From Gammaproteobacteria bacterium (GTDB taxonomy: Bacteria > Pseudomonadota > Gammaproteobacteria > SZUA-229): DNA of 64,000 nucleotides. The position numbers and the translations under genes are program-made. The notes beneath the pieces were generated by a model. The model had not been told where the DNA came from. It made no database searches and was given only the letters and a program-made list of their open reading frames with translations. The stretch covers positions 7,924 through 71,923 of the forward strand of contig JAOUNI010000004.1 of the NCBI GenBank assembly GCA_029881035.1. The letters run 5' to 3'. Shown in pieces: positions 38,573-62,667 of this stretch. The number at the start of each line of letters is the position of its first letter. Positions within the stretch are counted from its first letter, which is position 1.

Positions 38573-38592
38573 AGCCTAAACAGGAGAACCCT

Positions 38593-40730: not shown

Positions 40731-40761
40731 TAATAGTTAGTATTTGCACTATCTAGTCGAA

Positions 40762-43765: not shown

Positions 43766-44005
43766 ATTTAACTCCATAAAAAATGCGTCTTGAATCATTT
43801 CTAAAAAATTCAATGTTAAAAAGTGGTGCTGATTTATCTAACGATTATTTGTAAGGGAACCCTGTATAGTCTTTAAAATGCCATCTCCCAAAGATATCCT
43901 AATCGATTAGATGAACTCCTATAACCCTGCAACATACCATAACTTATAGCAGCAGGCCCTATTTTATCGTGAGTTTAACTACCTAATGTTCAGTGCGCAC
44001 TTGTC

Positions 44006-45037: not shown

Positions 45038-45070
45038 CGGCTTATTTGAGTGTGTATAGTTGGGTTACAT

Positions 45071-46504: not shown

Positions 46505-46512
46505 GCGTTAAC

Positions 46513-47550: not shown

Positions 47551-47628
47551 ATTGATTAGCTGTTATGGGCTGGTTTGCGACTGTCATCTATTGTAATGTG
47601 TTCGCCTTCAGAACGAAAATATGAATTA

Positions 47629-48732
47629 ATGAAAACTATTCTGCATACCATTGATACTACCGGCCCTGGTGGGGCTGAAACTGTATTTATAGATCTCGCA
47701 AGCAATTTGCCTCAGGAGAAATACCGAGCTGTGATTGTAATTCGTGGCAAAGGCTGGGTCTATGATGAGCTCTGTCGGCGTGGCATGCGCCCCATCCTTC
47801 TGGATGCTAAAGGGTCATTCAACTGGCGATATTTGAAGGCATTAGTCTCCCTAGTTCGCCGTGAAAAAATTGATTTGATTCAGTCGCACTTGCTGGGTTC
47901 GAATGTTTATTGTGCACTGGCGGGTCTAATTACCCGAAAACCCGTCGTGGCCACTTTTCATGGTGCCGTGGATATAGGTAGTAAAGAGAGGCTGATGTGG
48001 TTGAAGTTTGGCGCTATCAATATGGGAGCCAGTTCAATTGTGGCGGTTTCAGATAGTCTTAGAGAGAATATTATTAAGCGAACGCCACTACGGAACAGTA
48101 AAACAAGTGTGATATACAACGGTATCAATACTGCTGATTTCATGCGCCCAACTTCAGATGCTCTACGCAAGCAAATGGGCTGGAATAAAAAAGATATTAT
48201 CATTGGTAGCCTGGGTAATATTCGTCCAGCCAAGGCTTATGATGTTTTATTACGATCTGCAGCATTGCTGAAAGATCATATGCTCAACTTCCGTTTTGTT
48301 ATCGCTGGCCAGGGCAAAGGACGTTTGTTTGAGGATTTACTCAAACTGAAAGACGATCTGTGTCTTGGTGATAGAGTTCTTTTCCTCGGCTTCAATGATG
48401 ATCCAGCCGATTTTTTGTCTAATCTTGATTTGTTCCTGTTATCTTCTACTTCCGAAGGATTTTCCATCGCAACCATACAGGCGATGGCGGCTGGATTGCC
48501 CGTGGTAGCGACCCGCAGTGGAGGACCACAGGAAATTATCACGCATGAAAAGAATGGATGGCTGGTTGACCCAGATAATCCACAGCTAATCGCTGAGGCA
48601 TTGGACAGGCTGACGGCAGATCAGGAGCTAAGTGAATGCCTGGCAAAAGCGGGGCAAAAGCACGCATTTAGTGCTTTTGATGTGAAAAATATGGTTGGTG
48701 CTTATGAAGCGATCTATGAAGCATATACGTAG
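47629..48732 (+). CDS. Glycosyltransferase family 4. The start is probably the ATG at 47629; the ORF track gives 47575.
   Basis: The N-terminal GPGGAE and C-terminal E-x7-E region (SSTSEGFSIATIQAMAAGLPVVAT) are typical of GT4. Confidence 0.8.
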   Translation: MKTILHTIDTTGPGGAETVFIDLASNLPQEKYRAVIVIRGKGWVYDELCRRGMRPILLDAKGSFNWRYLKALVSLVRREKIDLIQSHLLGSNVYCALAGLITRKPVVATFHGAVDIGSKERLMWLKFGAINMGASSIVAVSDSLRENIIKRTPLRNSKTSVIYNGINTADFMRPTSDALRKQMGWNKKDIIIGSLGNIRPAKAYDVLLRSAALLKDHMLNFRFVIAGQGKGRLFEDLLKLKDDLCLGDRVLFLGFNDDPADFLSNLDLFLLSSTSEGFSIATIQAMAAGLPVVATRSGGPQEIITHEKNGWLVDPDNPQLIAEALDRLTADQELSECLAKAGQKHAFSAFDVKNMVGAYEAIYEAYT

Positions 48733-48769
48733 ATATGTAATCCATCGGCAATAACTACTTTTTTAGTCG

Positions 48770-49942
48770 TCACTTTTTTAGGTCTTTTAGATATTGTTTC
48801 AGTTCCCACCAGAAAGGCCCTAGATCACCCAAACGATTGACTTCATGCCTTGTTTTAAATGGCCTTGGTAATAGAAAATGTAGTACCGCCCGAGACTTAT
48901 CCATAAAAGAAAATTCTTTATCTCGAAGCGTCAGGTATAAACAATCCAAATCGCCCAAAATCCATCGTAGGCGCTTGCCTCTTTTATAAGATTTGAGAGG
49001 TGTTATTTTTTCACCGCAGGATATCTGATATAACAACCAGGGAAAATCGACGCCAGCATCAATAGCCAGCTGTAATGACCCCCAGAAACGTGTATTGATC
49101 TCCATTAGGTAAGGAGTACCAACGTTCGATACTTTAAACTCCACCATAGCTATACCATGCCAGCCAACATGACCAAGCAAGGCCTGAGTATAAGATAGTA
49201 ACTTTGAATTCACCGCGGTACTTTCAGAAAGGACACTGACACCCCCTCTGGGTGGTTTCTCTCGTAAACGTTTATGAGCGAAAAACGCCAAAGGCTTTCC
49301 TTTATCGTAAAGTGCGAATATACCTTCACCCTTGCCCGGAACACATTCTTGCAGCATAAATGGATGTGAACGAAATGCAGGATCGTTTTTAAGTATATCA
49401 GTAGCTGCATCAACAGTGCCTGCAAAACTGACAGTGGTATGCAACCATTCTCCCTGATATTCAAGCCAAGATTTGCCGGGTTTGAGAACCAGAGGATAAT
49501 TTAGCATGTGTAGCTCAACAGGCAGATTTTCAGGAGAGGCCGCATACCAGGTATTGGGTATGGGTATGTCGAGAGAGTCTGCCAGGTGCATAAGAGCATA
49601 CTTATTAGCAAGTGCATCAACGGTATTGATATCTGGAAAAGGTAGAGTAACGCCGGGTAATGCGTGCTGATGGTTAAGTAACAAGTTAGTTGTTAGCTCG
49701 GTCATCGGGAAAACGATATTAATATTTTCCTTTTTGCATAATTCGGCAATAGCAAAAATAAATTGTTCAGGGTGTAGGCGTGGTGAAGGGTATGAAAAAT
49801 ATTGCTTCGAGTAGCGCGAACAGCCCGACAGAGTTGTCTGTGAATCATCAGCAGTTATTATCGAAACACCACGACTACCTAGTGAGCGCGTTACCGCCAA
49901 AGCGGAGCGCTGGTTAGCATCTAGAATAAGTACGGTTTTCAT
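48770..49942 (-). CDS. ATP-grasp domain enzyme (carboxylate-amine ligase type)
   Basis: Pre-ATP-grasp N-terminus. Central LVLKPGKSW ... LQECVPG ... and the catalytic loop EINTRFWGS (E-x-N) are typical of the ATP-grasp fold. Confidence 0.7.
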   Translation of the reverse strand: MKTVLILDANQRSALAVTRSLGSRGVSIITADDSQTTLSGCSRYSKQYFSYPSPRLHPEQFIFAIAELCKKENINIVFPMTELTTNLLLNHQHALPGVTLPFPDINTVDALANKYALMHLADSLDIPIPNTWYAASPENLPVELHMLNYPLVLKPGKSWLEYQGEWLHTTVSFAGTVDAATDILKNDPAFRSHPFMLQECVPGKGEGIFALYDKGKPLAFFAHKRLREKPPRGGVSVLSESTAVNSKLLSYTQALLGHVGWHGIAMVEFKVSNVGTPYLMEINTRFWGSLQLAIDAGVDFPWLLYQISCGEKITPLKSYKRGKRLRWILGDLDCLYLTLRDKEFSFMDKSRAVLHFLLPRPFKTRHEVNRLGDLGPFWWELKQYLKDLKK

Positions 49943-50042
49943 GTAGAATGTATTCGTTCATAGTTATTTAGCAAGAAATTCATAGGATTATATCCGTTTC
50001 CAATGCGTTGCCAGAAACAAATTTGCCATAAAAAGGATTATC

Positions 50043-50609
50043 GTGAATAAAAATCGATGGCTAGCCAATCATTACGGATCACGCCGAGGCTTTGTGTTCA
50101 CCTTCTGGTATCGGTTTCTTTATCTATTAGGTAACTATCACGCTTATCGTCAGGTTGAATGGCGCTCAATTGAAAGGCTGGTGTTCATTTGTAAAGGAAA
50201 TATCTGTAGAAGCGCTTATGCCGAAGCGGTAGCTCGTTCATTGGGTATTAATGCAATATCCTGTGGACTTGATACTATCGAGGACGCACCTGCAAATGAG
50301 GCTGCGATTAGTGCGGGAAAGCAACTGGGCGTTAATCTTGAAAGCCATTCGACAAGTCCAATAATGTACCAGGTACTTAAGAAAACAGACTTGTTAATTG
50401 CCATGGAACCTTGGCAAGTTGAGTTTTTGGAAAAGAATTTGTCTAGAAAGCATTCATGTACATTATTAGGACTGTGGTCACAACCAGTATTACCGCACAT
50501 TCAAGATCCATATGGGTCATCCCCGGAATATTTTGAGAAATGTTTCATATACATACAAAACTCAGTTAATGAACTTGCCAGGAAGATAAATGAAAAATCA
50601 GGCAATTGA
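50043..50609 (+). CDS. Low-molecular-weight protein-tyrosine phosphatase
   Basis: P-loop ICKGNICRS (CX4CR(S/T)) and the DPY general-acid motif (IQDPYGS). Confidence 0.8.
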   Translation: MNKNRWLANHYGSRRGFVFTFWYRFLYLLGNYHAYRQVEWRSIERLVFICKGNICRSAYAEAVARSLGINAISCGLDTIEDAPANEAAISAGKQLGVNLESHSTSPIMYQVLKKTDLLIAMEPWQVEFLEKNLSRKHSCTLLGLWSQPVLPHIQDPYGSSPEYFEKCFIYIQNSVNELARKINEKSGN

Positions 50610-51918
50610 ATTGGCGGATTTATACGCATTTAAACTGGGATGTCTGTGGCGTGCGCTTAAAGCAGAGCACCTTTCTTTGTGGATGTTGTGTATATACTTT
50701 TTCCTCGAATATGTGCGCCCGCAAGATTTATACCCTGTGCTAGACATATTGCCATGGACGCAGGTTTTTTTAATTGCCACGATAGTGACTGCATTTTTTG
50801 ATCATTCTGTGCGTTGGGTGAGTAATGCAGAGAATAAACTTCTCATACTGTTTTTGATAATTGCAACTTTATCGGGTATTTTTGCGTTTATGCCAGGTCG
50901 ATCGCTTAAATATTGGGATGTTCTTGGTGGATGGGCAATTGCATATTTTCTTGTTATCAATATTGTAAATACTGAAAAAAGACTGATATTGTTTTTATTG
51001 GCTTACAGTCTGTTTAATTTTAATATGGCGCAACATGGATCGCTAACATGGATTATGCGTGGATTTTCTTTTGCTGATTTTGGGCTGTTAGGATCTCCCG
51101 GCTATTTTAGGAACTCAGGTGAATATGCTGTTCAAATGCTAATTTTTGGATCATTGGCAATCTCTATTGTTGTTTCATTAAAAGGTTATTGGGGGCAGTA
51201 TAAAAAATGGTTTTTTTATTTATGTGCGGCTACTGGTTATATGGCAGTGATGGGTGCTAGTTCTCGTGGTTCACAAATCGGCCTGGCAGTAATAAGCGTA
51301 TGGTTTTTACTTAAACAGGAGGGCGGGTTTAAAGGCTTGTTTGTTTTGCTTGTTGCGGTGGCTTTTTTGTATTATTTATTGCCTGACAAGCAGTTGTTAC
51401 GTTTTCAGGAAATAGGAGAGGATGAAAATTCATTGCAGCGTTTAACATACTACATCCATGGGATAAATGAAGTTATACCTAAACACCCCATTTTAGGGGT
51501 TGGATATCAGAACTGGCTACCGTATCTAAATTTTACTGTTCCAGAAGGGATGGGGCCAATGCAAAAAAATCAGGATCCTCATAATATTTATATTCAGGCA
51601 GCTGCAGAACTAGGGTTATTTGGTTTTTTAGTTTTTATTCTGCTAATAGTCTTTGCATTCAAAAATAATGCGCAAACAAGGCTGTTAGCAAAAAAAATAG
51701 ATAATAATTTTTATTTTAATCTCAGTTATGGCTTAGATGCTGGGTTAATCGGCTATCTGATAGCAGGAAGTTTTGTCACAATATTATATTACCCCTTTTT
51801 CTGGGTGCAAATATCAATGATTGTTATGCTTAATAATGTAATGAAAAGGGTATATATTTCCAACGATAGTACTATGTACAAAAAAAGGCTAGAAACAGGT
51901 GTGAAAAGGAACTTTTAA
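50590..51918 (+). CDS. O-antigen ligase-like (Wzy_C) membrane protein. Putative polysaccharide polymerase/ligase of the exosortase locus.
   Basis: Ten or more TM helices with a large periplasmic loop, matching a Wzy_C-type architecture. Its start overlaps the upstream gene by 20 nt. Confidence 0.65.
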   Translation: MKNQAIELADLYAFKLGCLWRALKAEHLSLWMLCIYFFLEYVRPQDLYPVLDILPWTQVFLIATIVTAFFDHSVRWVSNAENKLLILFLIIATLSGIFAFMPGRSLKYWDVLGGWAIAYFLVINIVNTEKRLILFLLAYSLFNFNMAQHGSLTWIMRGFSFADFGLLGSPGYFRNSGEYAVQMLIFGSLAISIVVSLKGYWGQYKKWFFYLCAATGYMAVMGASSRGSQIGLAVISVWFLLKQEGGFKGLFVLLVAVAFLYYLLPDKQLLRFQEIGEDENSLQRLTYYIHGINEVIPKHPILGVGYQNWLPYLNFTVPEGMGPMQKNQDPHNIYIQAAAELGLFGFLVFILLIVFAFKNNAQTRLLAKKIDNNFYFNLSYGLDAGLIGYLIAGSFVTILYYPFFWVQISMIVMLNNVMKRVYISNDSTMYKKRLETGVKRNF

Positions 51919-51953: not shown

Positions 51954-53540
51954 ATGTTGTTTAATTCCTATAGTTTCATTTTTCTTTTTTTACCTATAAC
52001 ATTGTCCGTTTTTTTTCTTACGGCCAGAATAGGTCGGGAGGCGGCGATAACCTGGTTGGTACTGGCCTCGTTATTTTTTTATGGCTGGTGGAATTCGATA
52101 TATCTAATATTGATCATGATATCAATGTTCGTTAATTTTTACATTGGCAATGTAATAAGTTCGAATTACAAAGAAAATAAAATCAAAAAATCAAAAATAT
52201 ATTTATTGTTGGGGTTATTTTTTAATCTTGGTATATTGGCCTATTATAAATATGCAGGATTTATTGTTTATAACATAAATGCCTTTTCGGCGGATCAGAT
52301 TAGTATAACTGAAATAGTATTGCCCCTGGCTATCTCATTTTTTACTTTTCAGCAGGTTGCATATCTAGTTGATGCTTCACGGGGAATTGCGCAAGAATAC
52401 CGATTTTCACATTATGCTTTATTTGTGACTTTTTTCCCGCAGTTGATCGCTGGGCCGATCGTTCATCATAAAGAAATGTTGCCGCAATTCATGCAGAGTG
52501 AAACCCTAAAACCACAGTTCGAAAATATAGCTATTGGATTGACGATATTTTTTATTGGTTTGTGTAAAAAAGTTGTTTTTGCAGATGGTGCTGCTCAGTA
52601 TTCGAGCCCGATATTTGAAGCTGCGAGTACAGGGTCGACGCTAACATTTTTAGAAGCCTGGGGTGGTGTTTTAGCATATACCATGCAATTATATTTTGAT
52701 TTTTCTGGTTATTCTGATATGGCCATAGGGGCGGCTAGACTATTTGGTATCCGTTTACCTCTTAATTTTTTCTCACCCTATAAGTCTACTAGTATTATTG
52801 AGTTTTGGAGACGCTGGCATATAACATTGTCACGGTTTTTGCGAGATTATTTATACTTCTCCATGGGAGGAAATCGTCGAGGTAAATTGCGTCGGTATGT
52901 TAATTTATTTACTACCATGTTGCTAGGTGGCTTGTGGCACGGAGCTGGTTGGACGTTTGTAGTATGGGGTGCATTACATGGTTTCTATTTAGTTGTTAAC
53001 CATGCATGGCATCGTTTTCGTGATGTATCGGGTGTGAGTGGAAGCCGGTGCCCTAAAATAAGTAAGTTTGTAGCATGGTTGGTAACGTTTTTATCAGTAG
53101 TGATTGGCTGGGTGTTTTTCCGTGCCAGTGATTTTGATAGTGCTATTGCTATTTTAAAGGGCATGGCAGGCATTAATGGACTTGCAATACCAAACGGAAT
53201 TTTGGCGAGACTGGGTGAGGCTGGAGTGTGGTTGCAAGGAATTGGTGTGGGTACAAGTCTTGGTGGGGGTTCAACTCTGATATTGACCTATCTTTGGATC
53301 ATGGTACTTTTGTTTGTGACATTAGTGCTACCTAATACTCAACAGATTATGTCAAAGTTTTCTCCTGTGTTATCTGAATATAAGTCTGACCCTATTTATT
53401 CAATTAGCATAGGAAGAAACTTTGAAATGATACTATTATGGCGACCAACCGTTATGTGGTCAATGATAATTGCGATGATAGCAACATTAGGTGTTCTTGC
53501 ACTTACCAGCGTATCTGAATTTTTATATTTTCAATTCTAA
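51954..53540 (+). CDS. MBOAT-family membrane-bound O-acyltransferase (AlgI/DltB-like)
   Basis: Multi-TM protein. The conserved His lies in the WHGAGW..VWGALHG region characteristic of MBOAT. Confidence 0.8.
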   Translation: MLFNSYSFIFLFLPITLSVFFLTARIGREAAITWLVLASLFFYGWWNSIYLILIMISMFVNFYIGNVISSNYKENKIKKSKIYLLLGLFFNLGILAYYKYAGFIVYNINAFSADQISITEIVLPLAISFFTFQQVAYLVDASRGIAQEYRFSHYALFVTFFPQLIAGPIVHHKEMLPQFMQSETLKPQFENIAIGLTIFFIGLCKKVVFADGAAQYSSPIFEAASTGSTLTFLEAWGGVLAYTMQLYFDFSGYSDMAIGAARLFGIRLPLNFFSPYKSTSIIEFWRRWHITLSRFLRDYLYFSMGGNRRGKLRRYVNLFTTMLLGGLWHGAGWTFVVWGALHGFYLVVNHAWHRFRDVSGVSGSRCPKISKFVAWLVTFLSVVIGWVFFRASDFDSAIAILKGMAGINGLAIPNGILARLGEAGVWLQGIGVGTSLGGGSTLILTYLWIMVLLFVTLVLPNTQQIMSKFSPVLSEYKSDPIYSISIGRNFEMILLWRPTVMWSMIIAMIATLGVLALTSVSEFLYFQF

Positions 53541-54806
53541 ATGACAACAAAAAAAAATAATTTTAGGAAGTATGTTGTTGTAATGGCATTTATATTTTTG
53601 ATATTTCTTGGTATTTCGGTGGTTATTAATTATTTAGTTGACCCATATGGATTGTTTGATTCAAAAAGAGTTAATGGCTTTAATCAGCTTAAGCCAAAAG
53701 CAACACGACACGTTCGTGTAACTAAACCATATCTTGTAGATGTATTTAATCCACGATCAATAATTGCTGGCAATTCGCGTCCTGAAATAGGCCTAGATCC
53801 AGAAAATAGTTGCTGGCCAGAAAGTTATCGGCCAGTTTTTAATTTGAGCGTGCCAGGTTCAAGTGTGTATATGGCTGCTCGTTATATTCAACATGCTATT
53901 GCTGGAAATGAAATAAAACAAGTTTTTTGGGGGTTAGATTTTAATGATTTTTTAAATGATGTGGCAAGAAATGAAAGCGTGGTGACCTGGCCGCCTGTTG
54001 AAGAAACATTTGAGGAACGGTTAAGGGTTAGGGCCGATGGTAGTAATAATGATATATATTACTGGAGTAAAATTAAAGATCAGTTAACTTTTTTATTTTC
54101 ACTTGATGCACTTGCGGATAGTTTTAATACAATAGTCCGACAATCAAACGAGCGCACACCAACAATCCGGCGTGATGGTTATAATCCAGCTAAAGACTTT
54201 CTGGATATTATTGCATTGGAAGGTCAAGGTTTGATTTTTAGGCAGACCAATATAAATACATCAGCAATGTTCAATAAGCCCGAGCGTACATTATTCACAA
54301 ATAATAATACTTCGCTGCAGTTTGAAAGTGTACGACAACTATTAAAATTTTCTCAAAAAAATAATGTAAATGTAGTGTTATTTATTAATCCATATCATTC
54401 AGATTATTTGGAGACTATTGAAATAGCGGGACTTTGGGAACATTTTTTATTATGGAAGAAACAGCTAACGTATTTGGCAGCGGAATTTGCTGTGCCCTTA
54501 TGGGATTTTAGTAGCTATAATGAACTAACTAATATTCAGCCACCTGTGATTGGTGATAATAAAAGCATATTGCGCTGGTTTTGGGAGCCGGCCCATTACC
54601 GTAAGGAGTATGGTGATTTGATATTGAGCCAGATGCTGAATGGTGCATGTGACAATAGCGATGTAATGCTCTCGGGGCAATTGCTTAAACCGGAAAAACT
54701 GGATGACTATATTATTAAATTAAATGAAGGTTTAAATTACTATAAGGATATACACGCAGAAGCAATAGAGCGTCTTCTCAACATAGTCCAGTTAAGAAAT
54801 AATTAA
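53541..54806 (+). CDS. Periplasmic partner of the MBOAT (AlgJ/AlgX/DltD-like, N-terminally anchored)
   Basis: It starts immediately after the MBOAT stop and has a single N-terminal TM anchor and a large periplasmic domain. The call rests on gene context and architecture, since no strong motif was recognised. Confidence 0.45.
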   Translation: MTTKKNNFRKYVVVMAFIFLIFLGISVVINYLVDPYGLFDSKRVNGFNQLKPKATRHVRVTKPYLVDVFNPRSIIAGNSRPEIGLDPENSCWPESYRPVFNLSVPGSSVYMAARYIQHAIAGNEIKQVFWGLDFNDFLNDVARNESVVTWPPVEETFEERLRVRADGSNNDIYYWSKIKDQLTFLFSLDALADSFNTIVRQSNERTPTIRRDGYNPAKDFLDIIALEGQGLIFRQTNINTSAMFNKPERTLFTNNNTSLQFESVRQLLKFSQKNNVNVVLFINPYHSDYLETIEIAGLWEHFLLWKKQLTYLAAEFAVPLWDFSSYNELTNIQPPVIGDNKSILRWFWEPAHYRKEYGDLILSQMLNGACDNSDVMLSGQLLKPEKLDDYIIKLNEGLNYYKDIHAEAIERLLNIVQLRNN

Positions 54807-54827
54807 TTTGCTCTTTATTCCACCAAA

Positions 54828-56117
54828 TCAGTTGGTGGTGAGCGGTGGTATTGGTGGATATACATTAGCGTGATCAGAGATTTTTGCACCGATTTTATTG
54901 TCGGAGGCGATTTCAAAATCATCAATATAGATTTGACCGATTGTATGGCTTACATGTTGGAAATTTCCCCAGAATGAAGCGCGTTCAACAACTGGCAATT
55001 TCATTTTAATAATTTCTACAATGGGTGTAGCGCCATCGGTATCCTCTTTGCCGGATTCAGAAATCCAGAGACGGTATTCACCATCATTATTGTATGTTTT
55101 ACCTGATGTGTCGGCTTGATCTAAAGTCGCGGCTAAGAATTCTTCCTCAATGTAATACCATTTGCCGCGTTCAAAATTTAACCCTTCGGGCATATCAGAA
55201 GGATTCGGTCCGGGTTGATAAACTGTAGTTTTTCCATCAGGTTTAATGTTAGTAGTAATTGTTTCGACATTGAAAGTGATAACCAATGGGACTACAGGGT
55301 ATTTGTCACCAAACCCTGTTGCATCGAAGTACATCTGAGTTAAGTTTGCATAATCATTAATGTTTGACGACCAGTAACGAAGTTTCATATTTGCTGGCTT
55401 TGCCATATCCATTCTCATGTAGAAACGCCGGTATATAGATTGTCCTGGAGCTTGTGTTCCAACAACATTCTCAAGGGAGTTGATTAATATGTTGCAGTCA
55501 TCTCGCTGGTTTACGTTGCTTGTGAAATTGCCATCAACCCCGCACTGCCTTGCTATGTAGATGTTATCGTTGGCATTAAAAATAGCGGGATCTTTGTTAA
55601 TTCCAGGGTTGAGCAGCTTAACTATTAATTTGTCATTGGTGGCGTTTTCATCTTCTACGGAAATAATTTCCCATTTGGAAAAGCCTTTCGTCTCATTGTA
55701 TAGTAATCTACCTTTTTTGGCTGCAGGACCTTTGTTTGCTGAAAGAGTTAAGTCCTCTTGTGTGTCGGTAACGAAATATTTGTCACCACCAGGAGCAGCA
55801 TTGGAGTTGTGTAGTAACAGCTTTCCTCCACAGGTATTGCATCTGCCGTTACGTCCATTAGGGTTAAGCTTTAAACTAGATGTTCCGCTGTGAGCAATAG
55901 TGTTTGTGAGTTCATATAAATTCCCAGGAGAAGTTGCGGTAGCCATTCGTGCAGGTAGAGCCCACACAGGTAAAGGGGTATCGATAGGGTCAGGTAAACC
56001 TGACTCAAAATCTAACTTAAATAAAGGTGCAGAGTAAGTATTAGTGGCTGAGACGGCTATTATGATACCTAAAAGACTAAATCGAGTCCAAAAGATGGGA
56101 GATGTGTTTATGGTCAT
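54828..56117 (-). CDS. Secreted hypothetical protein (candidate polysaccharide-active enzyme)
   Basis: 429 aa with an N-terminal signal peptide. The protein is beta-rich and Asn/Gly-rich. No motif recognised. Confidence 0.4.
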   Translation of the reverse strand: MTINTSPIFWTRFSLLGIIIAVSATNTYSAPLFKLDFESGLPDPIDTPLPVWALPARMATATSPGNLYELTNTIAHSGTSSLKLNPNGRNGRCNTCGGKLLLHNSNAAPGGDKYFVTDTQEDLTLSANKGPAAKKGRLLYNETKGFSKWEIISVEDENATNDKLIVKLLNPGINKDPAIFNANDNIYIARQCGVDGNFTSNVNQRDDCNILINSLENVVGTQAPGQSIYRRFYMRMDMAKPANMKLRYWSSNINDYANLTQMYFDATGFGDKYPVVPLVITFNVETITTNIKPDGKTTVYQPGPNPSDMPEGLNFERGKWYYIEEEFLAATLDQADTSGKTYNNDGEYRLWISESGKEDTDGATPIVEIIKMKLPVVERASFWGNFQHVSHTIGQIYIDDFEIASDNKIGAKISDHANVYPPIPPLTTN

Positions 56118-56270
56118 ATAGTTAACTCTTGAGTGGCATCACCAAAGTGTGAATATTTAAGACTAGGGCTTTGACTGAATTATACGTACTGATTATATAT
56201 CCAATTTTGAAATTGCGCATGTATAAATAAAAAACATATTGAGCATCGTGTAACTAGTTGAAATTACATA

Positions 56271-57374
56271 CTATTTAGTACCAGATGATTTGAAAGGATT
56301 TAGAGGATGTTTTTTGAGGCTGAGGCTTCTTTTCTCAATAACAAGCCATGAAGTCACAGCAAGTAGTGTGGTGATAATCAATGCATAAATAGCATAATCA
56401 AGACTCTCAGTATAACCAAGATAAATCATAAAATTTACAATTGGCATATGATATATGTATGTGCCATAGGAAATATCATTGCCTTTTAATAGTGTTTTAC
56501 TTAGTCCTGCAAATGAATACGAAAAAGAAAAAGCTGTGGACACTAATATAAGAAAAACAATAGGATTGATATTGTTGCCTAGTGCGATTTTATATGTTTG
56601 GCTTAAGTACCCTACTATGCAATATATAATGAACAGATGTATAAATTTATTGGCTAATAGCTTGTAAAAAAATGTAAAATTTTTCTGTGCTAATACACCA
56701 AATAGAAACATATAAAACCAGGGTAAAAAAGATACCCGAAACAATTTGTACAGAACATTATTATGATATTCATCAGGGATGTACGCGTATATTCGGTTTA
56801 TAAACAAAAAGAAGATGATAAGCAATATTAGCTTTAGATTATGTTTTTCAGTATCTAATAATTTAAAAAAAGAGTAAATAACAGGTACTAGAATATAAAA
56901 TTGAATCTCTACAGTAATCGTCCAAAGGCTGCCATTTAAAACTCCGTCACCATATGCTCTCATGAAGTCAGGGTTGTAAAATTGCAAAATTGAAGTCTTA
57001 GCAAAATACAGTGCCAGCCAGTCAATTGCACTGGCATTTGTTGTTACTAAGTAACCGCTTACATAAATAAGTATAAAAGAAAATGATACGCAGATAATTA
57101 GACCAGGATAGAGGCGCAGTATTCGATTTTGAAAATATTCAACAAGTTTGTGGTTACTTTCGTAAGATTTGCTAATTAAGAATCCACTAATGAAGAAAAA
57201 GATAGGCACGCCTGGAAACATCTGGGAGAAGTGTAGAAAATTTTTTAATACCATAGGCGGGTGAACGTGTAACATTTCCACACTATGGTTGACTGCCACC
57301 TGAAGGGCAGCAATTAATCGCAGTAAATCGAAGTTATTGATTTTATAGGTTTTGTTATTGATACCGTTCATCAT
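56271..57374 (-). CDS. Acyltransferase family 3 (OafA/YrhL-like) integral membrane O-acyltransferase
   Basis: The N-terminus FDLLRLIAALQVAVNH matches the acyltransferase-3 signature. ~10 TM helices. Confidence 0.75.
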   Translation of the reverse strand: MMNGINNKTYKINNFDLLRLIAALQVAVNHSVEMLHVHPPMVLKNFLHFSQMFPGVPIFFFISGFLISKSYESNHKLVEYFQNRILRLYPGLIICVSFSFILIYVSGYLVTTNASAIDWLALYFAKTSILQFYNPDFMRAYGDGVLNGSLWTITVEIQFYILVPVIYSFFKLLDTEKHNLKLILLIIFFLFINRIYAYIPDEYHNNVLYKLFRVSFLPWFYMFLFGVLAQKNFTFFYKLLANKFIHLFIIYCIVGYLSQTYKIALGNNINPIVFLILVSTAFSFSYSFAGLSKTLLKGNDISYGTYIYHMPIVNFMIYLGYTESLDYAIYALIITTLLAVTSWLVIEKRSLSLKKHPLNPFKSSGTK

Positions 57375-57585
57375 AGAAACAGGTGCCTGTTTGGTTACTT
57401 GGATAGTGAGGTCAAATCACTGTATTATTATAGATCTTTATATAAGTTTATTGGCAAGTAATGGTATGTCACTCATATCTTTATAGTTAATTGAGCTGCA
57501 ATGTGTTATAAATCGCAGTAGTTATACTACTGTATCAACTTAACTTGTATCGGTAGTTAGTATCTGTGATGAATTAAGAAGTCGT

Positions 57586-58341
57586 ATGTCAATTATTCAA
57601 CTTTTACCGCATGATGTGCGACGAGCGTTGTTCGCTATTGTAAGAAGATCAGAATTTTCCCGTATGCAAGATATGAGGAAAAATTCAAGGGGTGAGTATT
57701 CTTTTAAGCCTTTTGATGATACCAAAACAATATTTGTGCATATTCCTAAAGCTGCGGGAGTCTCAGTTTGCAAAAGCCTTTATGGTAATCTTGCAGGCGA
57801 GCATTCTTCGATTAATTATTATCAATATGTATTTTCAAAAAATGATTTTAGTCGTTATTTTAAATTTACTTTCGTTCGTAATCCTTGGGACCGGCTTTAC
57901 TCTGCATATACCTTTTTAAAAAAAGGGGGCTTTAATAAGCAAGATGAAAAATGGGCGATTGAAAACCTATCCCGATTTACTAGTTTTGAGCAGTTTGTAA
58001 TGGAGTGGGTTGTTGCGGAAAATATACATAAATATATACATTTCGTGCCACAAACAGAACTATTGATTTTTCCCGGCACCAATACAGTCGCAGTTGATTT
58101 TGTAGGATTTTTTGAAAATTTAGAGAATGATTTTGATTACGTTGCAAAAAAGATCAATAAGAATATTTCACTTCCCCATTTAAATAAAACGGATAATAAG
58201 CTTTTAGGGTATGTGCAAAAATATAACAGTATCATGATTGATGTCGTAGAGAAAGTGTACAAGGCTGACATTGATACATTTGGTTACTCTTTTGATAACT
58301 CAACGCTTGTGCAGCAACTAGCAAGGCGCTCGAGAGAGTAG
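57586..58341 (+). CDS. Sulfotransferase-family protein
   Basis: 5'-PSB-like loop HIPKAAGVS and 3'-PB-like motif FVRNPWDRLYSAY (RNPxxRxxS), as in carbohydrate sulfotransferases. Confidence 0.6.
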   Translation: MSIIQLLPHDVRRALFAIVRRSEFSRMQDMRKNSRGEYSFKPFDDTKTIFVHIPKAAGVSVCKSLYGNLAGEHSSINYYQYVFSKNDFSRYFKFTFVRNPWDRLYSAYTFLKKGGFNKQDEKWAIENLSRFTSFEQFVMEWVVAENIHKYIHFVPQTELLIFPGTNTVAVDFVGFFENLENDFDYVAKKINKNISLPHLNKTDNKLLGYVQKYNSIMIDVVEKVYKADIDTFGYSFDNSTLVQQLARRSRE

Positions 58342-58489
58342 TTTGATGCTGCGTTTAAACCTAGTGTTGAATTTGTACTTTCATATGCGCTTAATAAAAA
58401 TAAAATCTTCTGTTTTTGACACCTAGCAATCGCAATTGAGAGACAGTATTAAATAGCATGAAAACAGTTAAGCGAATTGAAAAGCGAGG

Positions 58490-59113
58490 ATGACGTTAGT
58501 GAAAAAATCTAAACCCCTCCCCAAAGTATTTGGAATTGGATTGAATAAAACAGGCACAACCACGTTAGGCGAGTGTGGAAAAATACTTGGGTATCGATGC
58601 ACAAGCTGTGATAGAGCGTTACTTAAAGAAGTTGTTTTGAAAAATGACTTTACTCTTATAAAAAACACGGTGGATCAGTTTGATTTATTTGAAGATTGGC
58701 CCTGGCCTTTGATTTATAGAGAGCTTGATCAAATGTACCCGGGTAGTAAATTTATCCTGACAACACGAAAATCTGAAGATGTATGGATTGATAGCATCAA
58801 AAGTTATTCTATGAAGACATCCCCGATAAAACATTGCCGAAAGCTTGCGTACGGGTTTAGCTTCCCGCATAAGCATGAGCAGCAATATCTGGATTTTTAT
58901 AGGAAACACAACGATAATGTTCGTGATTACTTTAGTGGTCGAAGTAGTGATTTTATTGAATTATGCTGGGAAAATGGCGATGATTTTGAGAAGCTGAGTA
59001 ACTTCCTAGAATGCAATAATCCTGAAGTCCCCCTGCCTCATGCTAATAAGGGTATAGATAATCAAGTTAGCAAGAGTCGACTATTTATGAATAGGCTATT
59101 AAGTTTTTTCTAA
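58490..59113 (+). CDS. Sulfotransferase-family protein (second)
   Basis: PAPS-binding P-loop-like GLNKTGTTT and a downstream TTRKSEDVWIDS block. GAGG RBS immediately upstream of the ATG. Confidence 0.6.
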   Translation: MTLVKKSKPLPKVFGIGLNKTGTTTLGECGKILGYRCTSCDRALLKEVVLKNDFTLIKNTVDQFDLFEDWPWPLIYRELDQMYPGSKFILTTRKSEDVWIDSIKSYSMKTSPIKHCRKLAYGFSFPHKHEQQYLDFYRKHNDNVRDYFSGRSSDFIELCWENGDDFEKLSNFLECNNPEVPLPHANKGIDNQVSKSRLFMNRLLSFF

Positions 59114-59328
59114 CTTAGAATATATATTATCTGCCATGTAGATGACTATGCTTGCGGACTGATTAAACAATTTAATCAATAATCTACGTATTTGACGTAT
59201 GATGGTGTTGCATCTAAAAAACTTAAAAGTCATGGTGAGTAGGCATGTTATGGATGAATTTTAACGAATATATGGGATTTGTAGTATATGCATTACGTTC
59301 TAGTGTTATTTCAATAAAGCAATAAACT

Positions 59329-60480
59329 ATGAAAAGTTTTCACAATATATTATTAGTTGCTAACTACGTATCAGATGTAGGCTATTCATGGCATTTAATG
59401 GAAGGTTTCTGGGCAGCCATTGCGAATAGATTTTCTACAGATAATAGAAAAGTTTATCTTGTATTCCCTGAAATTAACGAAATTTCACCAATTCTAAAGG
59501 ATGCTCCATTAGAAATTTGTGAGTTAGATTTTTCGTTGACGCTAGGTGCAAATAACAGCCTTGTAAAAAGATTTATTGAATCAAACAAGATAGGGTATAT
59601 CTATATCACAGCATACCCATATTATCACTTAAAATATATGGCGCTGAAGCGTTGGGGAGTTAAGAAAATAGTTCATCACGACCACTCGCCTGGCGAACGT
59701 GCCAAAATAAAAGGAGTAAAGCGATTAGCAAAAAAAGTTATCTTAAGTGCCCCCGGGGTTACTTGTGACTTATATATAGGCGTTTCTAAATTTGTTAGAG
59801 ACAGATTAATATCAAATGGTTGTCTCCCCCCATCTAAATGTAAATATATATTAAATGGCATATACCCTAGCAATGTTCCTACTGGTAGGTCAGACTATTC
59901 ACGCAAAGAATTTAATATCCCCATAGATGATATAGTAATCGTAACTACAGGGAGAGCAAGTTATTATAAAGGTATAGACTTTATAATTAACTGTGCAAAC
60001 TATTTAATTAACACGGAATGTTTTAATAATGTGAGCTTTTTATTTTGTGGTGACGGTCCAGATAAAAGTAAATTTATTGAACTAGTAAATGAACTAGGAA
60101 TAAGTAAAAAGTTTATTTTTGCTGGATACCGAAGAGATATCCCTAATATTTTAAAATCTTGTGATATTGCGTTTCATGCTTCAGAGGGAGAGGCGTTTTC
60201 ACTCTCTATACTAGAATATATGGATTCTGGTTGTGTTACGGTTGTTCCTGATAATTGCGGGAATAATGAAGCTGTCGTTCATAATAAAAATGGATTTCTA
60301 TATCCAACTAAAGATCTTCAAGTGGCAGTTAATATTCTTAAGAAATTAATAAACGACGCTGCGTTACGAGAAGAAATTGCCAGCACAGCTCAGAAAGATG
60401 TTAAATTATTTTTTGATATAAATCGTACCGAAAAAGAACTTGTTGAAATGCTGGTACCAGTCTTCAATGCTACTGATTAG
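59329..60480 (+). CDS. Glycosyltransferase family 4
   Basis: C-terminal GT4 E-x7-E region (ASEGEAFSLSILEYMDSGCVTVV). Confidence 0.8.
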   Translation: MKSFHNILLVANYVSDVGYSWHLMEGFWAAIANRFSTDNRKVYLVFPEINEISPILKDAPLEICELDFSLTLGANNSLVKRFIESNKIGYIYITAYPYYHLKYMALKRWGVKKIVHHDHSPGERAKIKGVKRLAKKVILSAPGVTCDLYIGVSKFVRDRLISNGCLPPSKCKYILNGIYPSNVPTGRSDYSRKEFNIPIDDIVIVTTGRASYYKGIDFIINCANYLINTECFNNVSFLFCGDGPDKSKFIELVNELGISKKFIFAGYRRDIPNILKSCDIAFHASEGEAFSLSILEYMDSGCVTVVPDNCGNNEAVVHNKNGFLYPTKDLQVAVNILKKLINDAALREEIASTAQKDVKLFFDINRTEKELVEMLVPVFNATD

Positions 60481-60540
60481 CAACACACGTAAGATATTTA
60501 GATGTATCTATAAGAGGAATTTTTATGACGGCGGATAATA

Positions 60541-61296
60541 ATGAGAAAAGAATTAGAAGAATATTTTCGTGAGATTCTTAAGAGCGACGCAACGGAAGAC
60601 AAAGAGGGAGCTCTTTCCTGGAGAATGTCTTGCTATGATTCCGGACAAGATATTGTCAACTATGTTGAAAATAATCACTTTCCACTTAAGCATAAAACGG
60701 TACTTGATTCTGCTTGCGCCTGGGGGAGTCATATTCTTTCATTTGGAGCAGCAGGAGCAGAAGTGTTTTGTGCAGACTTGAATGACCACTGTTATGATAA
60801 ATTACAGGATTTCGCTAAACAACAAAAAATAAGTCTCAAGATAAAACAGGCGAACTGTGAAACACTGCCATTTGATGATTGTTCGTTTGACCTGATACTT
60901 GGACTAGAGCTAATAGAGCATATTGAATCACCACAGAAATATGCATTTGAAGTCTCAAGATTGCTGCGTAAAGGAGGGATTTGCATTGTTACAACCCCCT
61001 CGAGATGGAAGTCAGTGTACTGGGGTGAGCCGCATTATAATATAAAGGGGCTTACACTTCTGCCATTCGTGACACAAAGATTTGTGGCAACTCATATATT
61101 TAGAAAAAAGTATCCTTTTCCAATTACACGTCAATATAACACCGCCAGCGCAGTTATGCAGCCATTTCTAAATGCTGGGCTTAGTGGCACGTCAAAAATT
61201 AACGGTATAATTGCAAAAAAGACCAAAAATATTCCATTATTAAACAATATAGCTAAAGAGTTACTCTGGGATTTCATAGTATTTGAAAAAAAATGA
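60541..61296 (+). CDS. Class I SAM-dependent methyltransferase
   Basis: Motif I (VLDSACAWG) and an acidic motif II (DLILGLE), with the LLRKGGICIV motif III. Confidence 0.7.
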   Translation: MRKELEEYFREILKSDATEDKEGALSWRMSCYDSGQDIVNYVENNHFPLKHKTVLDSACAWGSHILSFGAAGAEVFCADLNDHCYDKLQDFAKQQKISLKIKQANCETLPFDDCSFDLILGLELIEHIESPQKYAFEVSRLLRKGGICIVTTPSRWKSVYWGEPHYNIKGLTLLPFVTQRFVATHIFRKKYPFPITRQYNTASAVMQPFLNAGLSGTSKINGIIAKKTKNIPLLNNIAKELLWDFIVFEKK

Positions 61297-61677: not shown

Positions 61678-62667
61678 ATGGCAGAACCTATTAATGCTTA
61701 TAATTTGTATGATAGCGACATGAATAAACTCAAAATTAGCTTTATTATCCCTGCCTATAATGAAGAAGCACGTATTAAAACAACAATAGAAGAAATATTG
61801 AAATCGATTCCCGAAGGTTTTGATGCAGAAATTATTGTGGTGGATCATGGTTCGCAAGATAAGACGCGGGAGATTGTTAGTGAAATGTCCGTTCCAGTTA
61901 TGTTACATCCTGGTGGGACGATAGCAAGCTTACGAAATTTTGGCGTTAAACATGCTGTTGGCGATATTTTAGTTTTTGTTGATGCGGATGTGTTGTTGAC
62001 GGAGAGCTGGATGCATAGGTTTCAAGAGATTGCCCCATCATTGGCTTCAGGTAAGCAAATATTAACGGGATCTTGGGTAAGTGTGCCGGTGAATCCAAAC
62101 TGGATTGAAAAGAATTGGTTTAAACCTCTTCAAAAAGGTTCAAATACTCACATTAACAGTGGTCATATGATTATTTCAAAAAAATTATTTGATAAGATCG
62201 GCGGTTTTAATGAAGAGCTTGAAACAGGTGAGGATTTTGAAATATCTATGCGTGCCAAGTCGTTTGGACTTGATATTGTCGATGATGTACAACTGGTGGC
62301 GGTGCATGAAGGTTATCCACAGAATATTAAAGAATTTTTTCTTCGTGAGTTGTGGCATGGTAAAGGAGATGCATATACATTGTATTCACTTGTAACATCA
62401 AAGGTGGCTGTAGTAAGTTTGTTTTTTTTATGTTTGCATTTAATGTTTCTACATACATTTCTTTTCTCTGAAAAGATAATCTTACAGGCGTTTATCGCAG
62501 CAGCAATTTTTTTGATTGTTATGTTAGTGACAATTGCAAAATATAGATGTGCGACATTAAAAGAAATAATATGCAATATGTTTTTATATTATATCTATTT
62601 TTGGGCGAGGTCATTTTCATTAATGACATTATTTAGTAGAAAGAAACCAGTGAAACGAGAACGATAA
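61678..62667 (+). CDS. Glycosyltransferase family 2 with C-terminal TM helices. A likelier start is the ATG at 61720 (MNKLKISFIIPAYNEE).
   Basis: The N-terminal ISFIIPAYNEE and DAD (VFVDADV) motifs are typical of GT2. A hydrophobic C-terminal tail is present. Confidence 0.75.
   Translation: MAEPINAYNLYDSDMNKLKISFIIPAYNEEARIKTTIEEILKSIPEGFDAEIIVVDHGSQDKTREIVSEMSVPVMLHPGGTIASLRNFGVKHAVGDILVFVDADVLLTESWMHRFQEIAPSLASGKQILTGSWVSVPVNPNWIEKNWFKPLQKGSNTHINSGHMIISKKLFDKIGGFNEELETGEDFEISMRAKSFGLDIVDDVQLVAVHEGYPQNIKEFFLRELWHGKGDAYTLYSLVTSKVAVVSLFFLCLHLMFLHTFLFSEKIILQAFIAAAIFLIVMLVTIAKYRCATLKEIICNMFLYYIYFWARSFSLMTLFSRKKPVKRER

What the first reader, a model, noticed from the sequence alone, without database searches (positions are those of the whole stretch)
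51954..61296. Dense block of tailoring enzymes implies a sulfated, O-acylated and methylated exopolysaccharide
Within ~9 kb the locus encodes an MBOAT and its periplasmic partner, an acyltransferase-3, two sulfotransferase-like proteins with PAPS-binding-type motifs (HIPKAAGVS / RNPWDRLYS and GLNKTGTT), and a SAM methyltransferase, alongside GT4 and GT2 transferases and a Wzy_C protein. Sulfotransferases are uncommon in exosortase loci. Their presence suggests the polymer is sulfated, with consequences for cation binding and biofilm or phage interactions.
Basis: partly seen in the sequence, partly recalled or inferred. Interest (0 to 1): 0.55.

Follow-up and report, generated by a model that had tools for sequence, protein, structure and literature searches.

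The report
Sulfotransferases in an exosortase polysaccharide locus
The variable end of an otherwise typical exosortase-type (XrtA/PEP-CTERM) exopolysaccharide gene cluster carries two genuine sulfotransferase genes plus acyl- and methyl-transferases, so a sulfated, acylated slime polymer is a sound prediction, but these are known enzyme families in a common genomic setting, not a new kind of system.

Summary
These are MBOAT, Acyl_transf_3, Sulfotransfer_2 (57586-58341), Sulfotransfer_4 (58490-59113), GT4 and a SAM methyltransferase, with Wzy_C and GT2 just outside the stated range. Both sulfotransferases pass Pfam's cut-offs and keep invariant PAPS-binding residues. Their confident AlphaFold models match solved sulfotransferases.

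The block is the low-GC, variable part of one Wzx/Wzy pathway. That pathway sits in a bona fide XrtA/PrsK/PrsR/PrsT locus which runs past the window end.

Relatives of the first sulfotransferase occur in at least 567 species, mostly beside glycosyltransferases. In 9 of 80 loci sampled one sits directly upstream of a homologue of the same GT4. Five of the 80 have an exosortase within 10 kb. Among 23 metagenomic loci that share the conserved core, 4 carry a sulfotransferase, so "uncommon" is about right.

Most likely the two soluble enzymes sulfate the lipid-linked repeat unit in the cytoplasm. The MBOAT/DltD-like pair and the AT3 protein would then acylate it outside the membrane. The acceptor, the PAPS supply and the chemistry are untested.

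Verdict: a new member of a known kind, of modest interest.

The parts
50590..51918 (+). Wzy_C-type polymerase/ligase with about 10 hydrophobic segments. It is the last gene of the conserved core.
   Evidence: Pfam Wzy_C, E 6e-19. TIGR03097 scores 105.9 bits, below its cut-off of 188. Hydropathy. Conserved next to the LMW-PTP and ATP-grasp genes in more than 20 metagenomic loci.
51954..53540 (+). MBOAT membrane O-acyltransferase, AlgI/DltB-like, carrying the WHITLS histidine motif.
   Evidence: Pfam MBOAT, E 3.7e-36. Best NCBIfam model is DltB at 178.6 bits, below its cut-off of 375. The motif is visible in the translation. Hydrophobic segments.
53541..54806 (+). Membrane-anchored partner of the MBOAT, probably DltD/SGNH-like. 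It belongs to a family with no Pfam model.
   Evidence: 316 homologues, none with a Pfam domain. Directly downstream of an MBOAT in L086, L087 and L088. Of 30 family members, 5 weakly hit DUF1574 and 3 weakly hit DltD. Invariant G77 N78 S79 R80, D133, H286, H352. A single N-terminal hydrophobic segment at residues 7-38. No PDB match by sequence or profile.
54828..56117 (-). Orphan 429-aa protein of unknown function whose N-terminal leader looks like a signal peptide. It recurs beside Wzy_C.
   Evidence: No Pfam or PDB hit. Only 66 cluster representatives among 1.84 billion proteins. Homologues lie next to Wzy_C in L052, L059, L065, L091, L092 and L151. Export is my reading of the leader in the translation; the hydropathy scan found no segment at KD19 >= 1.6.
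56271..57374 (-). Acyl_transf_3 (AT3) integral-membrane O-acyltransferase.
   Evidence: Pfam E 9.6e-27. Seven hydrophobic segments. Lowest GC of the block, 0.323.
57586..58341 (+). ST1: soluble Sulfotransfer_2-family, PAPS-type sulfotransferase.
58490..59113 (+). ST2: soluble Sulfotransfer_4-family sulfotransferase. Gene callers start it at 58499.
   Evidence: Pfam 92.2 bits against a cut-off of 22.8. Invariant GIGLNKTGTT and R90/S99. AF2 model pLDDT 86.9. Foldseek hits: Cpz8 E 7.8e-9, SgdX2, the schistosome sulfotransferase, and heparan sulfate 3-OST 1.5e-4. phmmer to SgdX2 E 6.3e-6. NCBI calls it a hypothetical protein.
59329..60480 (+). GT4 glycosyltransferase. Its homologues directly follow ST1 homologues in 9 of 80 loci.
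   Evidence: Pfam Glycos_transf_1, E 3.9e-31. ST1 followed by a GT4b homologue with a gap of 53-68 bp on the same strand in L050, L052, L058, L059, L061, L065, L066, L072 and L074.
60541..61296 (+). Soluble class I SAM-dependent methyltransferase; acceptor unknown.
   Evidence: Pfam Methyltransf_11 E 7.7e-16 and Methyltransf_25 E 1.2e-13. No NCBIfam model reaches its cut-off.
61678..62667 (+). GT2 glycosyltransferase with a C-terminal membrane anchor.
   Evidence: Pfam Glycos_transf_2, E 4.3e-22. Hydrophobic segments at residues 234-294.
19438..50609 (.). Conserved XrtA/PEP-CTERM core locus. It holds an AAA_22 protein, a UDP-sugar dehydrogenase, a priming transferase, PrsK, PrsR, an XrtA-EpsI fusion, PrsT, three PEP-CTERM proteins, Wzz, a tyrosine-kinase-like ATPase, a DUF3473 deacetylase, FemAB-like proteins, deacetylases, a GT4, an ATP-grasp protein and an LMW-PTP.
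   Evidence: Pfam. NCBIfam scores against their cut-offs: XrtA 238.7 (208), PrsK 717.9 (300), PrsR 692.7 (502.6), PrsT 624.9 (312.2). The gene order is conserved in metagenomic relatives.

Best explanation
The 50.6-62.7 kb stretch is the variable, repeat-unit-specifying part of one Wzx/Wzy-type exopolysaccharide pathway. That pathway belongs to an XrtA/PEP-CTERM (exosortase A) locus.

Proposed order of events. All steps are inferred from gene content and predicted topology, except where marked as shown.
1. The priming transferase (22917-24338) and the GT4/GT2 enzymes build a repeat unit on undecaprenyl phosphate at the cytoplasmic face.
2. The two sulfotransferases ST1 and ST2 add ester sulfate from PAPS to one or two positions of that lipid-linked oligosaccharide. 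Both are shown to lack hydrophobic segments, and PAPS is cytoplasmic. The soluble SAM methyltransferase methylates it in the same compartment.
3. Wzx flips the unit and the Wzy_C protein polymerises it. Wzx lies just beyond the window end.
4. The MBOAT, with its membrane-anchored DltD-like partner, and the AT3 protein carry acyl groups (probably acetyl) across the membrane and put them on the polymer on the periplasmic side.
5. The polymer leaves through the Wzz/tyrosine-kinase-like/Wza machinery.

ST1 probably acts on the sugar handled by the adjacent GT4, because the ST1-GT4 pair is kept together in other genomes.
For: Families and fold:
- Both sulfotransferases pass Pfam gathering scores.
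- Their PAPS-binding residues are invariant across 30 homologues each.

One pathway:
- In about 65 kb there is a single priming transferase, Wzz, kinase-like ATPase, Wzy_C, Wzx and Wza-type exporter.
- XrtA, PrsK, PrsR and PrsT all pass their NCBIfam cut-offs.

Context of homologues:
- Among 138 ORFs immediately flanking ST1 relatives in 80 species, the commonest families are GT4 (18), GT2 (15), further sulfotransferases (7+6+3) and Wzx (4).
- 38 of the 49 loci of at least 18 kb contain homologues of this locus's glycan genes.
- The ST1-GT4b adjacency recurs in 9 of 80 loci.
- ST2-type and ST1-type genes co-occur in L052, L059, L065 and in a Ca. Electrothrix glycan cluster.

Topology:
- ST1, ST2, GT4b and the methyltransferase have no hydrophobic segment.
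- The MBOAT, AT3 and Wzy_C proteins are polytopic.
- The partner protein has one N-terminal anchor.

Precedents:
- The synechan xss cluster of Synechocystis is a Wzx/Wzy cluster with two sulfotransferase genes, and the polymer was shown to be sulfated (PMC8205485).
- The Alteromonas infernus GY785 EPS is natively sulfated (PMC6804119).
Against: - No biochemical data exist for any member of these two bacterial subfamilies in the material I could search.
- The window, plus about 10 kb beyond it, holds no cysC/cysN/cysD or cysQ, so PAPS supply is unverified. Related loci do carry an APS kinase or CysQ-like genes.
- The closest solved relatives of ST2 (Cpz8, SgdX2, the schistosome enzyme) are not annotated as polysaccharide enzymes.
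- Two of the three ST2 homologues examined lie outside an obvious glycan cluster.
- The methyltransferase is a generic class I enzyme with no subfamily assignment.
- The DltD/SGNH nature of the MBOAT partner rests on weak hits only.
Confidence: 0.72

Rival explanations
1. One or both sulfotransferases act on an acceptor other than the exported polysaccharide. Candidates are a glycolipid, glycans on the PEP-CTERM proteins sorted by XrtA, or a small molecule. On this reading the genes merely ride in the variable region.
For: The nearest solved relatives of ST2 are Cpz8 (caprazamycin pathway), SgdX2 and the schistosome sulfotransferase, none annotated as polysaccharide enzymes. The ST2 homologues in Desulfoprunum and Melioribacteraceae are not inside clear glycan clusters. 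Three PEP-CTERM proteins are encoded in the locus. The Wzy_C protein's best NCBIfam model is a 'putative O-glycosylation ligase' (TIGR03097), although below its cut-off.
Against: ST1 homologues are overwhelmingly flanked by glycosyltransferases and Wzx, and are tightly coupled to a GT4. Both genes sit between glycosyltransferases of a single Wzx/Wzy pathway. ST1's best structural matches are carbohydrate (heparan sulfate) sulfotransferases.
Confidence: 0.15
2. The sulfotransferase genes are present but not effective in this organism. Either it makes no PAPS, as with assimilation through APS reductase without an APS kinase, or the recently acquired low-GC cassette is not expressed. The EPS would then not be sulfated.
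For: No PAPS-pathway gene lies in the 64 kb window or the next 10 kb or so. The block has GC 0.32-0.38 against 0.41 for the window, and it differs from the closest related loci, which fits recent acquisition. Some related loci carry their own APS kinase, hinting that the supply is not always guaranteed.
Against: Both ORFs are intact, and every invariant family residue is retained. PAPS genes are normally unlinked to their consumers, so their absence from about 74 kb of a genome says little.
Confidence: 0.1
3. The block belongs to a second, separate surface polysaccharide (O-antigen or capsule) that merely abuts the XrtA locus, so it does not modify the exosortase-associated EPS.
For: The block has lower GC and variable content compared with the conserved core, as O-antigen regions do.
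Against: Across 19-72 kb I found only one priming transferase, one Wzz/kinase pair, one Wzy_C, one Wzx and one Wza-type exporter. XrtA-associated genes flank the block on both sides: ATP-grasp/LMW-PTP/Wzy_C upstream, and an asparagine synthase, Wzx and Poly_export beyond it. In metagenomic relatives the variable part always starts right after the same core.
Confidence: 0.03

Closest known systems
Synechan (xss) cluster of Synechocystis sp. PCC 6803 (PMC8205485)
   Same: A Wzx/Wzy-type EPS cluster containing two sulfotransferase genes of different subfamilies alongside many glycosyltransferases. The sulfotransferases are thought to act on the repeat unit before export.
   Different: The xss cluster is cyanobacterial and plasmid-borne. 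It is regulated by XssQ/R/S and has no exosortase system, MBOAT or AT3. I did not compare the Pfam families of XssA and XssE with ST1 and ST2. Synechan's sulfate content is measured, whereas here nothing is.
XrtA/PEP-CTERM (exosortase A) EPS loci with PrsK/PrsR/PrsT
   Same: XrtA (fused to EpsI), PrsK, PrsR and PrsT all pass their NCBIfam cut-offs. The DUF3473 deacetylase, FemAB-like proteins, asparagine synthase, Wzz/kinase-like ATPase and PEP-CTERM proteins are present.
   Different: The variable region here adds two sulfotransferases, an MBOAT pair, an AT3 and a methyltransferase. Only 4 of 23 related loci showed any sulfotransferase.
Carbohydrate sulfotransferases of the Sulfotransfer_2 family and the heparan sulfate 6-O/3-O/2-O-sulfotransferases
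   Different: Sequence identity is only 15-18%. ST1 is a soluble bacterial protein without the type II membrane anchor of the Golgi enzymes. Its acceptor is unknown.
Sulfotransfer_4 enzymes with solved structures: Cpz8, SgdX2 and the Schistosoma sulfotransferase
   Same: ST2 shares the fold and the GxxKTGTT loop. Foldseek E-values run from 7.8e-9 to 1e-7, and phmmer to SgdX2 gives E 6.3e-6.
   Different: By their entry titles, Cpz8 works in caprazamycin synthesis, SgdX2 is an 'activating sulfotransferase', and the schistosome enzyme is solved in complex with drugs. That these acceptors are small molecules is my own knowledge, not something tested here. ST2 sits between a sulfotransferase and a GT4 inside a polysaccharide locus, and is 60-70% identical to homologues across several phyla.
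AlgI/AlgJ/AlgX, PatA/PatB and DltB/DltD two-component O-acylation systems
   Same: An MBOAT is followed, with no intergenic gap, by a gene for a membrane-anchored extracytoplasmic protein. That protein has a GNSR motif, conserved His residues and weak DltD/DUF1574 similarity.
   Different: The partner family has no Pfam model and no PDB match by sequence. No DltA/DltC-type ligase or carrier gene is in the window. The acyl donor is unknown.

Membership tests
Sulfotransfer_2 (PF03567), for ST1 | Profile match above Pfam's gathering score | tested here: met
   57.2 bits against a cut-off of 22, E 3.7e-15.
Sulfotransfer_2 (PF03567), for ST1 | 5'-phosphosulfate-binding loop (PKxxG/S) and 3'-phosphate motif (R...S) conserved | tested here: met
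   HIPKAAGVS and RNPWDRLYS are present. H52, K55, G58, S60, R98, N99, P100, W101, R103 and S106 are invariant in 30 homologues.
Sulfotransfer_2 (PF03567), for ST1 | Sulfotransferase fold | tested here: met
Sulfotransfer_2 (PF03567), for ST1 | PAPS-dependent sulfuryl transfer to a carbohydrate | not testable with these tools
   This needs an enzyme assay.
Sulfotransfer_4 (PF17784), for ST2 | Profile match above Pfam's gathering score | tested here: met
   92.2 bits against a cut-off of 22.8, E 5.4e-26.
Sulfotransfer_4 (PF17784), for ST2 | P-loop-like GxxKTGTT motif and R...S motif conserved, plus sulfotransferase fold | tested here: met
   G12-T22, R90 and S99 are invariant. pLDDT 86.9. Foldseek to Cpz8 with bound PAP gives E 7.8e-9, TM 0.67.
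XrtA/PEP-CTERM system | Exosortase A together with PrsK, PrsR and PrsT, and PEP-CTERM substrates | tested here: met
   All four pass their NCBIfam cut-offs. Three proteins carry the PF07589 PEP-CTERM motif.
MBOAT (PF03062) | Profile match and the conserved histidine motif | tested here: met
   E 3.7e-36. WHITLS is in the translation. The DltB equivalog cut-off is not met (178.6 against 375), so the protein should not be called DltB.
DltD / SGNH-type acyltransferase partner, for 53541-54806 | Profile match, or an SGNH fold with a Ser-His-Asp triad | tested here: inconclusive
   No Pfam hit above cut-off. DUF1574 scores E 0.057 for this protein. Of 30 relatives, 5 hit DUF1574 and 3 hit DltD, with best E-values of 6e-4 and 1.2e-3. 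GNSR, D133, H286 and H352 are invariant.
Acyl_transf_3 (PF01757) | Profile match and a polytopic membrane protein | tested here: met
   94.3 bits against a cut-off of 31. Seven hydrophobic segments.
Sulfated-EPS biosynthetic cluster (synechan-like) | PAPS supply (APS kinase) available in the genome | not testable with these tools
   None in the window or in L001. The rest of the MAG could not be retrieved.
Sulfated-EPS biosynthetic cluster (synechan-like) | The polymer contains ester sulfate | not testable with these tools
   This needs chemical analysis.

The most novel reading that the evidence does not exclude
ST1-type (PF03567) and ST2-type (PF17784) sulfotransferases, often coupled to a specific GT4, could mark a widespread and so far uncharacterised route to sulfated exopolysaccharides in non-cyanobacterial bacteria. 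That range would include XrtA/PEP-CTERM floc and biofilm formers. If so, this would contradict the published statement that sulfated EPS is exclusive to cyanobacteria (PMC8205485). It would also supply candidate genes for the chemically detected but genetically unexplained sulfated glycoconjugates of granular sludge and microbial mats (PMC10483923, PMC9723792), where the gene surveys used two reference sulfotransferase proteins and PF13469 respectively.
Probability: 0.45. Interest if true: 0.5.

Novelty: new member of a known kind. Interest (0 to 1): 0.3.

Why it matters
Sulfate esters give a polysaccharide a strong, pH-independent negative charge. That changes cation binding, hydration, flocculation and recognition by phages or grazers.

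Sulfated glycoconjugates are detected chemically in sludge granules and microbial mats. The papers on them say the bacterial pathways are 'not well known' (PMC10483923).

This locus, and the recurring ST1-GT4 module found around it in Alteromonadaceae, Cellvibrio, Nitrosomonas and other lineages, give concrete gene candidates and a testable prediction. The enzymes and the architecture are all of known types, and NCBI already labels one of the two genes a sulfotransferase. The value is therefore as a lead for EPS chemistry, not as a new mechanism.

Tried and rejected
- **The MBOAT partner and the 429-aa orphan protein:** sequence and profile searches against the PDB gave nothing. Pfam scans of their families gave only weak hints: DltD/DUF1574 for the partner, and Polysacc_lyase-like at E 0.043 in 2 of 32 members for the orphan.
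- **Metagenome scan with an exosortase alignment:** I used the ATP-grasp core gene as the anchor instead.
- **First neighbour scan:** it exceeded the residue limit and was repeated without ORFs longer than 700 aa.
- **Organism identity:** this could not be refined beyond NCBI's label 'Gammaproteobacteria bacterium'. The MAG itself is not among the species representatives; the best ST1 match there is 64%, in Paraglaciecola.
- **Separate O-antigen locus:** considered and rejected, because there is only one set of Wzx/Wzy/priming genes.
- **Pseudogenes:** considered and rejected, because the ORFs are intact and all invariant residues are kept.
- **RNA features:** none in the window.

Full report
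**1. Checking the observation**

- 51954-53540 is an MBOAT (E 3.7e-36).
- 56271-57374 on the minus strand is an Acyl_transf_3 protein (E 9.6e-27).
- 57586-58341 (ST1) is Sulfotransfer_2, at 57.2 bits against a gathering score of 22.
- 58490-59113 (ST2) is Sulfotransfer_4, at 92.2 bits against 22.8.
- 59329-60480 is a GT4.
- 60541-61296 is a Methyltransf_11-type SAM methyltransferase.
- A Wzy_C protein (50590-51918) and a GT2 (61678-62667) lie just outside the quoted range.

These E-values are far beyond chance.

Two details need correcting. The 'periplasmic partner' (53541-54806) has no significant Pfam hit.

**2. Are the two proteins really sulfotransferases?**

ST1 has at least 1789 relatives and ST2 at least 751 in the large protein collection. 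In 30-sequence alignments the PAPS-binding residues are invariant:
- ST1: H52, K55, G58, S60 and R98, N99, P100, W101, R103, S106.
- ST2: G12 to T22 of GIGLNKTGTT, and R90, W96, S99.

AlphaFold models are confident, with pLDDT 91.7 and 86.9.

For ST2, Foldseek finds Cpz8 with bound PAP (E 7.8e-9), SgdX2 and the schistosome sulfotransferase, and more distantly heparan sulfate 3-OST. phmmer finds SgdX2 at E 6.3e-6.

Both proteins therefore have profile and fold support.

NCBI already names ST1 'sulfotransferase family protein' on a 91,492-bp MAG contig labelled Gammaproteobacteria bacterium. ST2 is deposited as a hypothetical protein.

**3. The surroundings**

The window from about 19.4 kb onward is a bona fide exosortase A locus. 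XrtA (fused to an EpsI domain), PrsK, PrsR and PrsT all exceed their NCBIfam cut-offs.

Other genes present are:
- three PEP-CTERM proteins;
- a priming Bac_transf enzyme;
- a UDP-sugar dehydrogenase;
- Wzz and a tyrosine-kinase-like ATPase;
- a DUF3473 deacetylase;
- FemAB-like proteins and further deacetylases;
- a GT4, an ATP-grasp protein and an LMW phosphotyrosine phosphatase.

The same contig was found in two other assemblies. It continues past the window end with an asparagine synthase, a Wzx flippase, a GT4, a second AT3, a second methyltransferase, a GT2, a DegT aminotransferase and a Wza-type exporter.

There is a single set of priming, flippase, polymerase and export genes. I therefore read the whole stretch as one Wzx/Wzy pathway.

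No cysC, cysN, cysD or cysQ is present in the window or the next 10 kb or so.

**4. The tailoring block is the variable part of the locus**

Its genes have GC 0.32-0.38 against 0.41 for the window.

I scanned metagenome contigs with the ATP-grasp core gene, which returned 80 loci. In more than 20 of them the gene order is conserved from Wzz through the kinase-like ATPase, DUF3473, FemAB, deacetylase, GT4a, ATP-grasp and LMW-PTP genes to Wzy_C, at 45-80% identity. The content beyond Wzy_C differs from locus to locus.

Of the 23 loci with at least 8 kb on that side, 4 had a detectable sulfotransferase: L091, L105 and L106 (probably one organism) and L141. One more, L096, had an APS kinase.

The closest relative, L091, has ST1 and the GT4 but no MBOAT pair, AT3 or ST2.

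Detection was by tblastn with a few seed proteins, so these counts are lower bounds.

**5. Context of homologues elsewhere**

A scan of one genome per species found ST1 relatives in at least 567 species across many phyla.

Among the 138 ORFs directly flanking them in 80 loci, the commonest Pfam families were:
- GT4 (18);
- GT2 (15);
- other sulfotransferases (7, 6 and 3);
- Wzx (4);
- a CysQ-like Inositol_P family (3).

In 9 of the 80 loci, ST1 is followed on the same strand, after 53-68 bp, by a homologue of the very GT4 that lies downstream here. In this window ST2 sits between the two.

Five of the 80 loci have an exosortase within 10 kb. The Glaciecola siphonariae protein passes the XrtA cut-off. 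The Alteromonas, Salinimonas, Oleiphilus and Pseudomonadales proteins pass only the general exosortase model.

ST2 homologues gave a mixed picture. In Ca. Electrothrix aestuarii one lies in a cluster with four other sulfotransferase genes, glycosyltransferases, methyltransferases and a Wzy_C. In Desulfoprunum and a Melioribacteraceae MAG the setting is not clearly a glycan cluster.

**6. The acylation genes**

The MBOAT carries the WHITLS histidine motif. Its best NCBIfam model is DltB, but far below the equivalog cut-off.

The next gene starts at the base after the MBOAT stop codon. Its product has one N-terminal hydrophobic segment. It has 316 homologues, none with a Pfam domain.

In all three unrelated long contigs I examined, its homologue lies directly downstream of an MBOAT. 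In one of them a sulfotransferase, a GT4 and an APS kinase follow.

A few family members weakly hit DUF1574 and DltD. GNSR, D133, H286 and H352 are invariant. The 'partner' call is therefore supported by conserved adjacency and hinted at by remote homology. Its fold was not tested.

**7. Mechanism**

ST1, ST2, the GT4 and the methyltransferase have no hydrophobic segment, and PAPS and SAM are cytoplasmic. Sulfation and methylation most likely happen on the undecaprenyl-diphosphate-linked repeat unit, before Wzx flips it.

The MBOAT/partner pair and the AT3 protein would acylate the glycan on the outer face. This is by analogy with the AlgI/AlgJ/AlgX, PatA/PatB and DltB/DltD systems, which is established knowledge and not tested here.

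All of these steps are inferred. What is shown is the family membership, the predicted topology and the conserved gene context.

**8. Comparison with what is known**

The closest described system is the synechan xss cluster, a Wzx/Wzy cluster with two sulfotransferases (PMC8205485). That paper states that such genes were not known in other bacterial EPS clusters and that sulfated EPS is exclusive to cyanobacteria.

Other work shows that statement is too strong:
- The Alteromonas infernus GY785 EPS is natively sulfated (PMC6804119).
- Pontiella has a putative sulfated-glycosaminoglycan cluster (PMC7356697).
- A MAG survey of mats used only PF13469 (PMC9723792).

In the held library no paper discussed a sulfotransferase within an exosortase or PEP-CTERM locus: the only co-mentions are a single Acetobacteraceae genomics paper and a reference-list entry in the synechan paper.

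**9. Verdict**

It is built from known enzyme families in a common kind of setting, and one of the two genes is already annotated, so this is a new member of a known kind.

What my analysis adds is fourfold:
- The block is the variable end of a conserved XrtA core.
- An ST1-GT4 module recurs across lineages.
- Sulfotransferases appear in a minority of related exosortase loci.
- Two neighbouring genes belong to families with no description.

Noticed in passing
window 14705-18542 (- strand): There is a sharply bounded high-GC island, with GC 0.53-0.62 against 0.31-0.46 on both sides. It coincides exactly with a four-gene ABC transporter operon: a solute-binding protein, two permeases, and an ATPase with a TOBE domain. 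It lies just upstream of the EPS locus. Either it is a recent horizontal acquisition or the assembly is chimeric. The long ORFs on the opposite strand there (15890-16480, 16405-16902, 16581-17276) are probably side effects of the high GC.
   Followed up: partly
window 54828-56117 (- strand): This 429-aa protein has a leader that looks like a signal peptide and no Pfam or PDB match. It belongs to a very small family, with 66 cluster representatives among 1.84 billion proteins. Its homologues recur beside Wzy_C in related loci (L052, L059, L065, L091, L092, L151). Two of 32 members weakly hit a polysaccharide-lyase-like Pfam at E 0.043. It may be a glycanase or a chain-processing enzyme.
   Followed up: partly
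window 53541-54806: The MBOAT partner belongs to a family of at least 316 proteins with no Pfam model. It has invariant GNSR, D133, H286 and H352, and it always lies directly after an MBOAT gene. It would be a candidate for a new family definition related to DltD/DUF1574.
   Followed up: partly
L087 4421-10193 (NCBI GCA_015657895.1): In an unrelated MAG the MBOAT-partner pair is preceded by an AMP-dependent ligase and a PLP decarboxylase. It is followed by a Sulfotransfer_1/3 gene, a GT4 and an APS kinase. PAPS supply is thus built into that locus, and the arrangement of ligase plus MBOAT plus partner resembles the Dlt pathway.
   Followed up: no
L084 1-16678 (Ca. Electrothrix aestuarii, CP159373.1): A cable-bacterium glycan cluster has five sulfotransferase genes from three Pfam families within 16 kb. 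They are interleaved with GT2/GT4 genes, three or four methyltransferases and a Wzy_C. This suggests a heavily sulfated and methylated surface glycan.
   Followed up: no
window 31331-34144 (+) and 40967-43813 (-): There are two TPR proteins of about 940 aa in the same locus. The first passes the PrsT equivalog cut-off. The second, on the opposite strand, looks like a paralogue and was not scored against NCBIfam.
   Followed up: no
window 58490-59113: ST2 is deposited in NCBI as 'hypothetical protein OEY66_02260' (MDH5611266.1), although it scores 92 bits on PF17784. NCBIfam has no model that names it.
   Followed up: yes
L031, L035, L037 (Nitrosomonas supralitoralis, N. ureae, Nitrosomonas sp.): ST1 relatives at 42-43% identity occur in ammonia-oxidising Nitrosomonas genomes. 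I did not check whether they lie in the EPS loci of those organisms.
   Followed up: no
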